Positions 41,074-64,000 of a DNA stretch of 64,000 bases are shown in pieces (position 1 is the stretch's first letter; the number at the start of each line of letters is the position of its first letter). The DNA is from Escherichia phage EcF-vB. The notes under the pieces were generated by a model, which saw only the letters and a list, made by a program, of their open reading frames with translations, did not search any database and was not told the DNA's origin. The position numbers and the translations under genes were made by a program. The stretch lies in sequence record PV683228.1; one strand, given 5' to 3'.

Positions 41074-41150
41074 TGGTACAGGTGGAGGGAATTGAACCCA
41101 TCGTCTTACTGATTAAGAGTCAGCCGCATAACCATTTTGCTACACCTGCA
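41074..41150 (-). tRNA. tRNA-Lys (anticodon CTT)
   Basis: Anticodon arm GCUGA-CUCUUAA-UCAGU; T-loop GGTTCAATTCC. Confidence 0.6.
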
Positions 41151-41156
41151 TTAATT

Positions 41157-41233
41157 TGGTACACCTAGAGAGATTCGAACTCACACTGAGCAGATTCTAA
41201 GTCTGCTGCCTCTACCAGTTGGGCTATAGGTGC
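41157..41233 (-). tRNA. tRNA with anticodon UAG (Leu-type) but class I length; identity uncertain
   Basis: Perfect anticodon stem GCAGA/UCUGC with loop CUUAGAA; 5-nt variable loop; mirrored at 63917-63993. Confidence 0.55.
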
Positions 41234-41488
41234 ATTAAATCTTTTTAGAGAACTTCTAAGAACCTAAGCAACAAGGTTCCACAACAAGCTGTAATAACCT
41301 TAGAAGCCCTCTAAAAAGACCTAAAAAGGTCTCTGCATAGTCTTGTTTAATCCGGTGACTAGAGCCTTTGGAGAGCTTGATATTATCTCTTCTCCGTGAC
41401 ACCTACTAGGTGCTTTATTAGTGTGTACGACAATACACGAGGGATACCAAAGCAACATCCGAATGAAGCTTGGTTTTAAATCTTATTA

Positions 41489-41578
41489 GGCGGTAAGTAA
41501 AGGAGTCGAACCCTCACCGTATCTCTACAGTGGCAACTGTTTTCAAGACAGTTTGGCTACCATTAGCCGCTACCTACC
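41489..41578 (-). tRNA. tRNA-Ser (anticodon TGA), class II
   Basis: About 90 nt with long variable arm; anticodon arm ACUGU-CUUGAAA-ACAGU. Confidence 0.65.
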
Positions 41579-41591
41579 CCTAATAAGACTT

Positions 41592-41674
41592 TGGCATGGG
41601 ACGGAGGAGTTGAACCCCTTTGAAACGGTGTTGGAAGCCGTTGCTCATGCCTTAGAGTCTTAACATCGTCCCAT
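41592..41674 (-). tRNA. tRNA-like gene, anticodon unresolved (possibly CCA)
   Basis: Acceptor AUGGGAC/GUCCCAU and T-loop GGTTCAACTCC present; anticodon arm does not fold cleanly by eye. Confidence 0.4.
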
Positions 41675-41816
41675 ACTATAATTCGAAGCTTACCGTATTA
41701 TCTCAACACTGTAAAGCCCCTTCTCAGATTATTTACATGTTCTGGAAAACATGAGATACAGACCACCTCCCTACAGGAAGACCCGCTTAGGTCGTCTAAG
41801 TAATCTGCTAACTAAT

Positions 41817-41893
41817 TGGCACACCCTACAGGATTCGAACCTGTAACTCAATGATTAGAAGTCATTTGCTCTGTCCAGTTGAACTAAGGGTGC
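41817..41893 (-). tRNA. tRNA-Arg (anticodon TCT)
   Basis: Anticodon arm AAUGA-CUUCUAA-UCAUU; T-loop GGTTCGAATCC. Confidence 0.7.
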
Positions 41894-42185
41894 ATTAATC
41901 TTTAAAGACTCTCTTAGAAAACCCTTAAAGATGCCCACCTTATTAATCATACCGTGGGCTAGTACGCCAAATTCTTTGATGAGGGATTGGAAGACCTCAC
42001 TGGTGTTTAGCCTATCAAGCTACTGCCAGAAAAACATTGTCGTTTGCATTTATTTTAAATTTGCAAAATAGACGCTACGCAACGAAAACTATTCAGAATA
42101 TGTACAACAAATTTCCCCACATTGTGTTACGTCTAACGCTCATGTATTGGTGTTTGAATTATACATATTGTGAACTATTTTAGTT

Positions 42186-42214
42186 ACTATAAAGTAGTCA
42201 CATCTCAATGTCAA
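42186..42214 (-). promoter_or_regulatory. consensus sigma70-like promoter TTGACA-N17-TATAGT on minus strand
   Basis: RC of 42209-42214 is TTGACA, RC of 42186-42191 is TATAGT, 17-nt spacer; mirrored at 62937-62965. Confidence 0.5.
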
Positions 42215-42229
42215 CAACTTTATTGAAAT

Positions 42230-42304
42230 TGGTTGTAGGTGAGGGTATCGAACCCTCTTCTAACGGTTATCAGCCGTTTGCATTACCATTTATGCTAACC
42301 CACA
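42230..42304 (-). tRNA. tRNA-Ile (anticodon GAT)
   Basis: Anticodon arm AACGG-CUGAUAA-CCGUU; T-loop GGTTCGATACC. Confidence 0.7.
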
Positions 42305-42306
42305 AT

Positions 42307-42383
42307 TGGAGGTTCAGATGGGAATCGAACCCACATTCATAGGGCTTATGAGACCCTTGCATTACCTTATCTGCGACTGAACC
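42307..42383 (-). tRNA. tRNA-Met (anticodon CAT)
   Basis: Anticodon arm AGGGU-CUCAUAA-GCCCU; T-loop GGTTCGATTCC. Confidence 0.7.
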
Positions 42384-42387
42384 ATTT

Positions 42388-42462
42388 TGGTAGAAGTGGA
42401 GGGATTCGAACCCATCGCCTGTCAGATTAAAAGTCTGCACATCACCATTCTGCTACACTTCC
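42388..42462 (-). tRNA. tRNA-Lys (anticodon TTT)
   Basis: Anticodon loop CUUUUAA; T-loop GGTTCGAATCC. Confidence 0.7.
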
Positions 42463-42466
42463 ATTA

Positions 42467-42610
42467 AATTATCTTTGTAGATAAGCTACCCAGACTTGCT
42501 TAAGGTCTGTAGCGATGTGACTTTTTGGGTTTAAATCTAGAATTTACCCTTTCACCCTTTGTGGTCGCATACTCACAGGTAAGCTTAATAACTTATCTAC
42601 AAAGATAATT
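42467..42610 (-). other. 144-bp element bounded by perfect 19-bp terminal inverted repeats (candidate structured ncRNA or MITE-like element)
   Basis: AATTATCTTTGTAGATAAG at 42467-42485 is the exact reverse complement of 42592-42610; internal hairpins; mirrored at 62540-62683. Confidence 0.4.
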
Positions 42611-42916
42611 ACCAGACCGTTGTTTATCATCTTAAGTGCTACCATTACACCAACTCGACCTCTGCCGAGTGAAGGAATCGAACCTTCTCCTTTTCTTTAC
42701 CGAGAAATAGATTGTTTAAGTTTTGCTGTAAACGGTCTTCTGTAAATTTGTTGAGCCAGACCAAGTTTTAAATTTTTCAAAATTAAATTGGCTTGAAATT
42801 TTAAGTAACTTGCTGTATTTGGTCTTCTGCTCCTTTAAAGAATACTCGTAAGAACTCTTTAAGGGAGGGGCTAAATAGCCCTCTCAAAACATCATTTTGA
42901 AATACTTATTATAATT

Positions 42917-62216: not shown

Positions 62217-62539
62217 TCCCTTCGTAACCGCCAAATTATAATAAGTATTTCAAAATGATGTTTTGAGAGGGCTATTTAGCCCCTCCCTTAAAGAGTTCTT
62301 ACGAGTATTCTTTAAAGGAGCAGAAGACCAAATACAGCAAGTTACTTAAAATTTCAAGCCAATTTAATTTTGAAAAATTTAAAACTTGGTCTGGCTCAAC
62401 AAATTTACAGAAGACCGTTTACAGCAAAACTTAAACAATCTATTTCTCGGTAAAGAAAAGGAGAAGGTTCGATTCCTTCACTCGGCAGAGGTCGAGTTGG
62501 TGTAATGGTAGCACTTAAGATGATAAACAACGGTCTGGT

Positions 62540-62683
62540 AATTATCTTTGTAGATAAGTTATTAAGCTTACCTGTGAGTATGCGACCACAAAGGGTGAAA
62601 GGGTAAATTCTAGATTTAAACCCAAAAAGTCACATCGCTACAGACCTTAAGCAAGTCTGGGTAGCTTATCTACAAAGATAATT
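62540..62683 (+). other. 144-bp element bounded by 19-bp terminal inverted repeats (mirror copy)
   Basis: Mirror of 42467-42610. Confidence 0.4.
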
Positions 62684-62687
62684 TAAT

Positions 62688-62763
62688 GGAAGTGTAGCAG
62701 AATGGTGATGCGGCAGACTTTTAATCTGACAGGCGATGGGTTCGAATCCCTCCACTTCTACCA
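62688..62763 (+). tRNA. tRNA-Lys (anticodon TTT)
   Basis: Mirror of 42388-42462 with a small difference in the D-arm/anticodon-stem region. Confidence 0.65.
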
Positions 62764-62767
62764 AAAT

Positions 62768-62844
62768 GGTTCAGTCGCAGATAAGGTAATGCAAGGGTCT
62801 CATAAGCCCTATGAATGTGGGTTCGATTCCCATCTGAACCTCCA
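62768..62844 (+). tRNA. tRNA-Met (anticodon CAT)
   Basis: Mirror of 42307-42383. Confidence 0.7.
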
Positions 62845-62846
62845 AT

Positions 62847-62921
62847 TGTGGGTTAGCATAAATGGTAATGCAAACGGCTGATAACCGTTAGAAGAGGGTT
62901 CGATACCCTCACCTACAACCA
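62847..62921 (+). tRNA. tRNA-Ile (anticodon GAT)
   Basis: Mirror of 42230-42304. Confidence 0.7.
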
Positions 62922-62936
62922 ATTTCAATAAAGTTG

Positions 62937-62965
62937 TTGACATTGAGATGTGACTACTTTATAGT
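62937..62965 (+). promoter_or_regulatory. consensus sigma70-like promoter TTGACA-N17-TATAGT
   Basis: TTGACA 62937-62942, TATAGT 62960-62965; directed at downstream tRNA genes. Confidence 0.5.
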
Positions 62966-63257
62966 AACTAAAATAGTTCACAATATGTATAATTCAAACA
63001 CCAATACATGAGCGTTAGACGTAACACAATGTGGGGAAATTTGTTGTACATATTCTGAATAGTTTTCGTTGCGTAGCGTCTATTTTGCAAATTTAAAATA
63101 AATGCAAACGACAATGTTTTTCTGGCAGTAGCTTGATAGGCTAAACACCAGTGAGGTCTTCCAATCCCTCATCAAAGAATTTGGCGTACTAGCCCACGGT
63201 ATGATTAATAAGGTGGGCATCTTTAAGGGTTTTCTAAGAGAGTCTTTAAAGATTAAT

Positions 63258-63334
63258 GCACCCTTAGTTCAACTGGACAGAGCAAATGACTTCTAATCAT
63301 TGAGTTACAGGTTCGAATCCTGTAGGGTGTGCCA
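63258..63334 (+). tRNA. tRNA-Arg (anticodon TCT)
   Basis: Mirror of 41817-41893. Confidence 0.7.
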
Positions 63335-63476
63335 ATTAGTTAGCAGATTACTTAGACGACCTAAGCGGGTCTTCCTGTAGGGAGGTGGTCTGTATCTCAT
63401 GTTTTCCAGAACATGTAAATAATCTGAGAAGGGGCTTTACAGTGTTGAGATAATACGGTAAGCTTCGAATTATAGT

Positions 63477-63559
63477 ATGGGACGATGTTAAGACTCTAAG
63501 GCATGAGCAACGGCTTCCAACACCGTTTCAAAGGGGTTCAACTCCTCCGTCCCATGCCA
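63477..63559 (+). tRNA. tRNA-like gene, anticodon unresolved
   Basis: Mirror of 41592-41674. Confidence 0.4.
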
Positions 63560-63572
63560 AAGTCTTATTAGG

Positions 63573-63662
63573 GGTAGGTAGCGGCTAATGGTAGCCAAAC
63601 TGTCTTGAAAACAGTTGCCACTGTAGAGATACGGTGAGGGTTCGACTCCTTTACTTACCGCC
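63573..63662 (+). tRNA. tRNA-Ser (anticodon TGA), class II
   Basis: Mirror of 41489-41578. Confidence 0.65.
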
Positions 63663-63916
63663 TAATAAGATTTAAAACCAAGCTTCATTCGGATGTTGCT
63701 TTGGTATCCCTCGTGTATTGTCGTACACACTAATAAAGCACCTAGTAGGTGTCACGGAGAAGAGATAATATCAAGCTCTCCAAAGGCTCTAGTCACCGGA
63801 TTAAACAAGACTATGCAGAGACCTTTTAGGTCTTTTTAGAGGGCTTCTAAGGTTATTACAGCTTGTTGTGGAACCTTGTTGCTTAGGTTCTTAGAAGTTC
63901 TCTAAAAAGATTTAAT

Positions 63917-63993
63917 GCACCTATAGCCCAACTGGTAGAGGCAGCAGACTTAGAATCTGCTCAGTGTGAGTTCGAATCTCTCTAGGTGTACCA
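63917..63993 (+). tRNA. tRNA with anticodon UAG (Leu-type) but class I length
   Basis: Mirror of 41157-41233. Confidence 0.55.
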
Positions 63994-64000
63994 AATTAAT

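What the first reader, a model, noticed from the sequence alone, without database searches (positions are those of the whole stretch)
41150..64000. Giant inverted repeat (arms at least 10.8 kb) that runs off the window edge
Roughly 41150-52195 is the reverse complement of 53297-64000. Every ORF in 45244-51334 reappears on the opposite strand in 53965-60972, many with identical translations (377-aa Ig-like protein 47019-48152 = 58065-59198; 132-aa 48667-49065 = 57151-57549). The tRNA genes at 41157-42462 reappear mirrored at 62688-63993. The mirror copy continues to the last base of the window, so the true arm length is unknown. Large inverted repeats are unusual for tailed phages, whose terminal redundancy is normally direct. 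Alternatively this is a palindromic (snap-back or chimeric) assembly artefact.
Basis: seen in the sequence. Interest (0 to 1): 0.8.

Follow-up and report, generated by a model that had tools for sequence, protein, structure and literature searches.

The report
Fold-back artefact in a phage assembly
The 11-kb "giant inverted repeat" is really in the sequence, but it is almost certainly a false fold-back join in a noisy, unpolished long-read assembly of an ordinary FelixO1-like phage, not a feature of the phage genome.

Summary
The inverted repeat exists: 41150-52245 is the reverse complement of 53286-64000. The window is a Felixounavirus (FelixO1-like myovirus). About 350 GenBank relatives and 8 independent metagenome or isolate contigs carry this region once, with no inversion.

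The "centre" (52246-53285) is not a spacer. It is the normal continuation of the right arm, so there is a single sharp breakpoint at 52245|52246, which joins genome positions about 1.04 kb apart on opposite strands.

The last ~860 bp of the left arm decays into raw-read-like noise, rising from 3 to 18 differences per 100 bp. Wherever the references can decide, they back the right-arm copy (62:0). Elsewhere the arms differ almost only by 1-2 nt indels, and each arm is wrong about equally often. Each arm also lacks a different ~1 kb segment that all relatives have.

The whole window is a frameshift-ridden draft; the large terminase is split into four frames at 99-100 % amino-acid identity. The true genome ends (DTR) map to 39603-40144, about 12 kb away.

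Verdict: a chimeric fold-back assembly artefact, not a real feature. Reads were not available, so this rests on indirect evidence.

The parts
41150..52245 (+). Left arm (11,096 bp). It runs in the same orientation as the rest of the window (1-52245), which is collinear with Felixounavirus genomes.
42934..43995 (+). Left-arm-only segment (1,062 bp): tRNA-Asp, Tyr, Asn, Met, Glu, Pro plus the 3' end of the 471-aa vWFA/DUF2828 gene. It is deleted from the right arm at 62216|62217 and present in all references. No microhomology at the deletion.
49204..49207 (+). Site in the left arm where 718 bp is missing, including most of the D-Ala-D-Ala carboxypeptidase gene and the 97-aa and 114-aa genes. ATGTC 5-nt microhomology at the deletion.
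51387..52245 (+). Noisy tail of the left arm: 97 difference blocks against the right-arm copy (46 extra bases, 14 missing, 37 substitutions). Density rises from 3 to 18 per 100 bp toward the junction. Identity to references is 77-80 % with 28-46 gap openings. The 182-aa gene is destroyed here.
   Evidence: references side with the right-arm version 62:0.
52245..52246 (.). The fold-back breakpoint (false join). All four references stop aligning exactly here from both sides. There are no unaccounted bases, no adapter and no clear microhomology.
52246..53285 (-). The 'centre' (1,040 bp), single copy. It is the genuine continuation of the right arm into the conserved ~1.7-kb non-coding region. It is not palindromic and is rich in one-stranded TGTTAA repeats.
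53263..53288 (-). Terminator-like hairpin (10-bp stem followed by a T-run) ending the gene block. The left arm breaks off at the position equivalent to the base of this hairpin.
53286..64000 (-). Right arm (10,715 bp), the mirror copy. It runs off the window edge toward the position of the genome's left physical end, which would lie ~1.5 kb beyond base 64000.
56290..57007 (-). Right-arm-only segment (718 bp). It is present in all references and missing from the left arm.
39603..40144 (+). Context: the equivalent of the experimentally mapped direct terminal repeat of Felixounavirus UAB_Phi87. This marks the true genome ends, about 12 kb from the breakpoint, and is read through once in the window.

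Best explanation
The window is a draft, noisy-read assembly of an ordinary Felixounavirus.

At 52245|52246 the contig makes a false fold-back. After reading the genome forward to the end of a gene block, it jumps ~1.04 kb ahead and reads the same genome backwards on the opposite strand. This produces two mirror-image 'arms'.

The join comes from one or a few chimeric (inverted) long reads. Possible sources are template switching of a strand-displacing polymerase during whole-genome amplification, a library-preparation fold-back or ligation chimera, or two overlapping contigs or reads abutted by the assembler.

Shown: the breakpoint, the one-sided noise, the independent indel errors in each arm, and single-copy status in all relatives.

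Inferred: genuine reads across this locus align better to the continuous right-arm path. That leaves the left-arm tail supported only by the chimeric read(s), so it stays unpolished.

Which laboratory or software step made the chimera is not resolvable here.
For: (1) Single copy elsewhere. About 350 Felixounavirus records match the region and none shown carries an inverted second copy. Eight independent 73-92 kb contigs with the identical 196-aa protein all have the normal layout.

(2) The right arm plus 'centre' is one collinear stretch in the references (window 52246-58000). All four references end their alignments at exactly 52246.

(3) One-sided noise. Left-arm 51682-52236 is 77-79 % identical to references with 44-46 gap openings. 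The mirror copy 52974-53824 is 94.9 % identical with 2. Difference density rises from 3 to 18 per 100 bp toward the junction, and references back the right-arm version 62:0. The first 106 bp on the other side of the junction align to a reference with 0 gaps.

(4) Away from the tail, the arms differ at 16 sites, nearly all 1-2 nt indels, with 0 substitutions in 5.2 kb. References support the left arm at 8 sites and the right arm at 6, with 2 undecided. These are independent consensus errors on one underlying sequence.

(5) The whole window is frameshift-ridden. The large terminase is in 4 frames at 99-100 % amino-acid identity, and the DNA polymerase and ligase are split.

(6) Each arm lacks a different ~0.7-1.1 kb segment that all relatives have, one with 5-nt microhomology. 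This is the form of 'direct' chimeras.

(7) The true termini map ~12 kb away and are read through.

(8) Literature. Inverted chimeras with distances under 10 kb are the commonest MDA artefact (PMC9984789). Between 48 and 63 % of reads were chimeric in MDA + nanopore phage-plaque sequencing (PMC13108922). WGA palindromic reads cause inverted duplications in assemblies (PMC6218980). Fold-back reads make up ~0.6 % of ONT gDNA reads, often with no adapter between the halves (PMC12338684).
Against: No reads, coverage or source record were available. The junction 51-mer is absent from all searchable collections, so the artefact is inferred from the sequence alone.

No adapter remnant was found, and no 5-8 nt overlap of the kind typical of MDA chimeras is visible at the junction, although noise could hide it.

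The ~1 kb offset is larger than the ≤200 bp used to define library fold-back reads.

The left breakpoint sits at a terminator hairpin, which would also suit a genuine polymerase stall or template switch in vivo.

Both arms are ≥10.7 kb and, outside the tail, equally well polished, so more than a short stretch of a single read contributed to them.
Confidence: 0.9

Rival explanations
1. A genuine physical fold-back molecule made in vivo. During phage replication a fork stalled at the terminator hairpin, and the nascent strand switched to the opposite strand ~1 kb away. This produced a rare snap-back (hairpin or inverted-dimer) replication intermediate or defective genome that was present in the DNA preparation and captured by a few reads.
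For: The left breakpoint coincides with the base of a 10-bp-stem terminator-like hairpin. There is no adapter or filler at the join. The geometry, an inverted join with a ~1 kb offset, is that of polymerase template switching, which can in principle also happen in cells.
Against: The noise shows that very few reads support the junction. No relative or independent contig shows it. In-vitro chimeras of exactly this form are extremely common. Two further arm-specific deletions in the same 23 kb fit a chimera-rich library better.
Confidence: 0.05
2. A heritable inverted duplication of ≥10.7 kb in the packaged genome of this particular phage strain.
For: The repeat is long and nearly identical. Many ORFs are intact in both arms. 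A 226-bp deletion relative to all relatives is shared by both arms.
Against: An extra ≥12 % of an ~87-kb genome is an unlikely fit for a capsid of fixed size (inference). Arm differences are indels, not substitutions, and break conserved genes in both arms. The insertion-rich ~15 % decay confined to one side of the junction has no biological counterpart. The feature is absent from ~350 relatives.
Confidence: 0.02
3. No chimeric molecule exists at all. Two overlapping contigs (or a contig and an unmerged read) of the same assembly, in opposite orientation, were simply abutted, either in the record or by a scaffolding or merging step.
For: The left part ends in a low-quality tail of the kind seen at long-read contig ends. 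The join has zero overlap or filler. The arm-specific large indels would have prevented automatic merging of the overlap.
Against: The right part starts cleanly, with 0 gaps in its first 106 bp against a reference, whereas contig starts are usually as poor as contig ends. No N-gap marks a scaffold join (base counts show only A, C, G and T). This is still an artefact, so it does not change the verdict.
Confidence: 0.03

Closest known systems
Inverted (palindromic) chimeras of multiple-displacement/whole-genome amplification carried into long-read assemblies (reviewed in PMC9984789; Pacasus, PMC6218980; phage plaque MDA + nanopore, PMC13108922)
   Same: Two segments of the same locus are joined on opposite strands. 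The chimeric distance (~1.04 kb) falls within the reported 0-5 kb range. Deletion-type ('direct') chimeras accompany it. It produces inverted duplications in contigs.
   Different: No 5-8 nt overlap is visible at the join. Whether this sample was amplified is unknown.
Fold-back read artefacts in Oxford Nanopore genomic libraries (Breakinator; PMC12338684)
   Same: Template and complement of one locus are concatenated, frequently without any adapter or filler between the halves. They are known to tangle assembly graphs.
   Different: Those are defined by both halves mapping within 200 bp of each other, whereas the offset here is ~1 kb. The error spectrum of the noisy tail is insertion-rich, which from my own knowledge is more typical of PacBio CLR than of ONT.
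Missed SMRTbell-adapter palindromic reads (mentioned in PMC6218980)
   Same: They produce forward-then-reverse-complement reads and palindromic contigs. Insertion-rich raw errors fit.
   Different: They should be symmetric about a fragment end and usually retain adapter sequence. No adapter is found here, and the join is offset by ~1 kb.
Felixounavirus direct terminal repeats (UAB_Phi87: 608 bp by Bal31 and run-off sequencing, PMC4837284; 542 bp exact repeat in JN225449)
   Same: This is the only terminal redundancy known in this genus, and its equivalent lies in this window (39603-40144).
   Different: It is direct, ~0.5-0.6 kb long and ~12 kb from the breakpoint. The feature under review is inverted, ≥10.7 kb long and internal.
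GenBank MG969406.1 (UNVERIFIED Salmonella phage GE_vB_B3, 109 kb)
   Same: Another over-long, indel-noisy assembly of a phage in the same subfamily (Ounavirinae) with a large artefactual duplication (22.7 kb, 97.6 %, 256 gaps).
   Different: Its duplication is direct (an end overlap of a circularly joined assembly), not inverted, and its boundaries are unrelated to 52245.

Membership tests
Long-read fold-back / inverted-chimera assembly artefact | Two parts of the contig map to the same reference locus on opposite strands, meeting at a single breakpoint | tested here: met
   the arms map to the same Felixounavirus region. All four references break at exactly 52245|52246.
Long-read fold-back / inverted-chimera assembly artefact | The junction is absent from independent genomes of the same lineage | tested here: met
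   single copy in ~350 records and 8 independent contigs; the junction 51-mer is absent from three large collections.
Long-read fold-back / inverted-chimera assembly artefact | Little or no read support for the junction (low consensus quality at the false join) | tested here: inconclusive
   Reads are unavailable. There is indirect support: a one-sided raw-read-like error gradient (3 to 18 differences per 100 bp), with references backing the other copy 62:0.
Long-read fold-back / inverted-chimera assembly artefact | Arm differences are technical (indels, independent in each arm) rather than evolutionary (substitutions) | tested here: met
   0 substitutions and 8 indels in 5.2 kb. References support the left arm at 8 sites and the right arm at 6; frameshifts occur window-wide.
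MDA (phi29) inverted chimera specifically | Chimeric distance under 10 kb and a short (about 5-8 nt) overlap at the junction; an amplified library | tested here: inconclusive
   The distance of ~1.04 kb fits. No overlap is seen at the fold-back. A 5-nt ATGTC overlap is present at the 718-bp deletion. The library type is unknown.
Missed-adapter (SMRTbell / ONT) palindromic read | Adapter remnant at the centre; arms symmetric about a fragment end | tested here: not met
   no adapter match near the junction; 0 unaccounted bases and a ~1 kb offset.
Phage terminal redundancy (DTR or ITR) | The repeat copies lie at the two physical ends of the virion DNA | tested here: not met
   the UAB_Phi87 terminal repeat maps to 39603-40144 and is read through once. 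The breakpoint corresponds to ~14.6/15.6 kb from the left end. Ends in that phage were mapped experimentally.
Invertible-segment systems (Gin/Cin/Hin type) | Short inverted repeats flanking a few-kb invertible segment, with an adjacent serine invertase | tested here: not met
   The arms are ≥10.7 kb, and the 'segment' between them is non-coding sequence collinear with one arm. No recombinase is annotated in this region of any reference.
Hairpin-telomere (protelomerase, N15-like) replicons | A palindromic telomere-resolution site at the symmetry centre and a protelomerase gene | tested here: not met
   the centre has no palindromic symmetry (best self-reverse-complement match is 13 nt). The join is asymmetric. 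No such gene is annotated in the reference regions retrieved; a dedicated profile search was not run.

The most novel reading that the evidence does not exclude
The junction records a real snap-back molecule formed in infected cells. On this reading, a Felixounavirus replication fork stalled at the intrinsic-terminator hairpin that ends the lysis/early gene block. It then switched strands ~1 kb downstream and generated an inverted-dimer replication intermediate or defective genome running to the left genome end.
Probability: 0.04. Interest if true: 0.45.

Novelty: not a real feature. Interest (0 to 1): 0.06.

Why it matters
Taken at face value, this contig would suggest a tailed phage with a >10-kb inverted repeat, duplicated tRNA and lysis genes, and an oversized genome. 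None of that is warranted.

The practical value is quality control. The record should be split at 52245|52246, de-duplicated and polished before use. Its many frameshifted genes (terminase, polymerase, ligase, lysin) are errors, not pseudogenes.

The case also gives a read-free recipe for recognising fold-back artefacts:
- one-sided error decay toward the breakpoint;
- indel-only arm differences that are wrong in both arms about equally often;
- collinearity of the 'spacer' with only one arm.

Tried and rejected
(1) Retrieving the source contig to extend past 64000. The 51-nt junction sequence has no exact match in IMG/VR, JGI metagenomes or GTDB genomes. Window 50500-54500 has no hit in PLSDB plasmids or complete E. 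coli genomes. Exact-protein look-ups of the 377-aa and 223-aa products found nothing.

(2) Breakpoint at a physical genome end: rejected. BPS15Q2 and pEP20 records happen to start or end in the same non-coding region, but at different positions and with no terminal repeat. The experimentally mapped UAB_Phi87 ends lie ~12 kb away.

(3) A recurrent fold-back in the oversized relative MG969406.1: rejected, because its duplication is direct.

(4) Two co-assembled strains: rejected. The arms show 0 substitutions in 5.2 kb, whereas the nearest database relatives differ by 4-5 %.

(5) Adapter remnant at the join: none found (an earlier fuzzy-regex attempt, timed out).

(6) Microhomology at the fold-back: none convincing. 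The 'TAA(G)AGCC' similarity between the two sites is not used in the observed join.

(7) Counting small indels per kb directly at nucleotide level was confounded by natural intergenic variation. It was replaced by the protein-level frameshift test.

(8) The SACRA paper (PMC8513251) is not held.
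Full report
OBSERVATION. Aligning the window against itself confirms a very large inverted repeat in three colinear blocks:
- Left 41150-42933 = reverse complement of right 62217-64000 (99.83 %).
- Left 43996-49207 = reverse complement of right 57008-62216 (99.83 %; 0 mismatches, 8 gap openings).
- Left 49204-52245 = reverse complement of right 53286-56289 (95.5 %; ~62 mismatches, ~65 gap openings).

ARAGORN finds tRNA-Leu(tag), Ser(tga), Arg(tct), Ile, Met and Lys(ttt) at 41157-42462, mirrored at 62688-63993. 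The right arm runs to the last base of the window.
- The left arm reaches 52245.
- 42934-43995 exists only in the left arm, and 56290-57007 exists only in the right arm.
- Several ORFs are intact in one arm only.
- The region between the arms is not a neutral spacer.

WHAT THE WINDOW IS. Window 1-52245 is collinear, at about 95-96 % identity, with Felixounavirus genomes (FelixO1-like myoviruses of E. coli and Salmonella, 83-90 kb). The order is DNA polymerase, tail fibres, baseplate, tape measure, capsid, portal, terminase, a cluster of 26 tRNA genes, then a block containing the Ig-like tail protein and the lysin. About 350 GenBank records match the repeat region. In the records shown, a query lying wholly within the forward-reading part of the window (25001-50000) matches one place per record. 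Eight independent 73-92 kb contigs that encode the identical 196-aa protein all show the ordinary layout: gene block, ~1.7 kb non-coding region, then an oppositely oriented gene block.

ANATOMY OF THE JOIN. References cover window 52246-58000 as one continuous stretch on the minus strand. Four references examined in detail all end their alignment at exactly 52246 from the right and at 52210-52245 from the left. The 1,040-bp 'centre' is therefore the normal continuation of the right arm into the conserved non-coding region. The only anomaly is a single breakpoint, 52245|52246. It joins two points of the genome ~1.04 kb apart on opposite strands (UAB_Phi87 coordinates ~14,560 and 15,612).

At the breakpoint there are no unaccounted bases, no sequencing-adapter remnant, no palindromic symmetry in the centre, and no convincing microhomology. 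The left breakpoint lies at the base of a terminator-like hairpin, whose right-arm copy is at 53263-53288.

THE DECISIVE PATTERN: ERRORS. Three observations bear on this.

(a) The last ~860 bp of the left arm (51387-52245) carries 97 difference blocks relative to the right-arm copy: 46 extra bases, 14 missing bases and 37 substitutions. Density climbs from 3 per 100 bp to 11-18 per 100 bp near the junction. Wherever reference genomes can adjudicate, they support the right-arm version, 62 to 0. Against references, the left tail is 77-79 % identical with 44-46 gap openings, and its mirror copy is 94.9 % identical with 2. The first 106 bp on the other side of the junction align to a reference without any gap. 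A ~15 % insertion-rich error rate confined to one side of a breakpoint is what an unpolished single noisy long read looks like. I know of no biological process that produces it.

(b) Away from the tail, the arms differ at only 16 sites, almost all 1-2 nt indels and often in homopolymers. References support the left arm at 8 sites and the right arm at 6, with 2 undecided. These are independent consensus errors laid on one underlying sequence. Each arm has conserved genes broken by them: the lysin in the left arm, and the 471-aa, 123-aa and 193-aa genes in the right arm.

(c) The unique part of the window is equally poor. The large terminase is split into four frames at 99-100 % amino-acid identity, and the DNA polymerase and ligase are each split once. 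The sequence is a draft consensus of noisy reads throughout.

ARM-SPECIFIC DELETIONS. The left arm lacks 718 bp, covering most of the carboxypeptidase gene and two small genes, with ATGTC microhomology at the deletion. The right arm lacks 1,062 bp, covering six tRNAs and the 3' end of the vWFA/DUF2828 gene. All references have both segments. Two deletion-type rearrangements plus one inverted join within 23 kb suggest chimera-rich input molecules.

NOT TERMINAL REDUNDANCY. UAB_Phi87, a Felixounavirus whose ends were mapped with Bal31 and run-off sequencing, has short exact direct terminal repeats: 608 bp in the paper (PMC4837284) and 542 bp identical at both ends of JN225449. PhageTerm results for other members also indicate DTRs (PMC11737134). 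That repeat maps to window 39603-40144, inside the tRNA cluster, and the window reads through it once. The contig is therefore a circularised or concatemer-type assembly, and the breakpoint is ~12 kb from a genome end. The right arm is heading toward the left genome end, which would lie ~1.5 kb beyond base 64000; this cannot be checked here.

MOST LIKELY MECHANISM. This part is inferred. One or a few inverted chimeric long reads joined the forward strand to the reverse strand ~1 kb away, and the assembler followed them. Genuine reads across this locus fit the continuous path (right arm, centre, downstream genes) better than the left arm. The left-arm tail was therefore polished by almost nothing and kept raw-read quality, while reads further out were split between the arms.

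Published work makes this unsurprising:
- Median chimeric-read rates of 48-63 % were reported for MDA + nanopore sequencing of phage plaques, a study that included Felixounavirus isolates (PMC13108922).
- Palindromic WGA reads create inverted duplications in assemblies, and missed SMRTbell adapters can do the same (PMC6218980).
- Fold-back reads make up ~0.6 % of ordinary ONT genomic reads, often with nothing between the halves, and can tangle assembly graphs (PMC12338684).

Which of these routes applies cannot be decided. The ~1 kb offset and the accompanying deletions favour polymerase template switching. The lack of overlap at the join and the unknown library type leave ligation chimeras or simple abutment of overlapping contigs open.

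RIVALS.
- A real in-vivo snap-back intermediate at the terminator hairpin is not excluded (about 5 %), but it would still be a rare molecule and not the genome.
- A heritable inverted duplication (about 2 %) conflicts with the error pattern, with the capsid-capacity inference and with all relatives.
- Two co-assembled strains are excluded by 0 substitutions in 5.2 kb between the arms.

LIMITS. No reads or coverage were available. The source contig could not be found in any searchable collection, so nothing beyond base 64000 could be examined.

VERDICT. The repeat is present in the sequence, but it is an assembly or library artefact in a low-quality draft of an ordinary Felixounavirus. Interest is low.

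Noticed in passing
window 36414-38009, ~6396, ~9825 (also 14814-15094, 30259-30737, 32354-32726): Essential genes are frameshifted at 99-100 % amino-acid identity to relatives. The large terminase is in four frames, and the DNA polymerase and DNA ligase are each split once. This indicates an unpolished noisy-read consensus across the whole window.
   Followed up: yes
window 52246-53285: The conserved ~1 kb non-coding region between convergent gene blocks carries 16 TGTTAA(G) motifs on one strand and 1 on the other (15.4 per kb against 0.8 per kb window-wide). It also has three copies of a hairpin-like motif AAAGCCTTATAAAGGGCTAT at 52248-52347. Relatives annotate 'repeat_region' here. These could be iterons, protein-binding sites or an early-promoter array; the function is unknown.
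   Followed up: partly
window 39603-40144: The equivalent of the experimentally mapped direct terminal repeat of Felixounavirus UAB_Phi87 lies inside the tRNA cluster and is read through once. The contig therefore does not start or end at the physical genome ends.
   Followed up: yes
window 46941-46950 and mirror 59267-59276: Both arms share a 226-bp deletion that removes most of a 123-aa gene. That gene is present in all references and in 8 metagenome contigs. This is probably a genuine strain-specific deletion, or it was inherited by both arms from one template molecule.
   Followed up: partly
window 38452-43581: A cluster of 26 tRNA genes on the minus strand, interrupted by small ORFs. This is typical of Felixounavirus; six of them are duplicated in the false right arm.
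   Followed up: yes
window 16138-16215 and 16810-16887: An 80-bp direct repeat (86 % identical) within the tail-fibre gene region. It is the only other repeat found by self-BLAST.
   Followed up: no
GenBank MG969406.1 (loci L015-L017), 1-22420 vs 86625-109375: This UNVERIFIED 109-kb Ounavirinae record carries a direct 22.7-kb end overlap at 97.6-98.7 % identity with ~300 gap openings. It is an over-assembled, indel-noisy long-read contig, not a larger genome.
   Followed up: yes
window 47019-48152 (and 58065-59198): The 377-aa 'tail protein' consists of tandem Ig-like domains (Pfam Ig_2/Ig_3/I-set on homologues). Its length varies among relatives (293/294 aa or 377 aa), which suggests gain or loss of a domain.
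   Followed up: no
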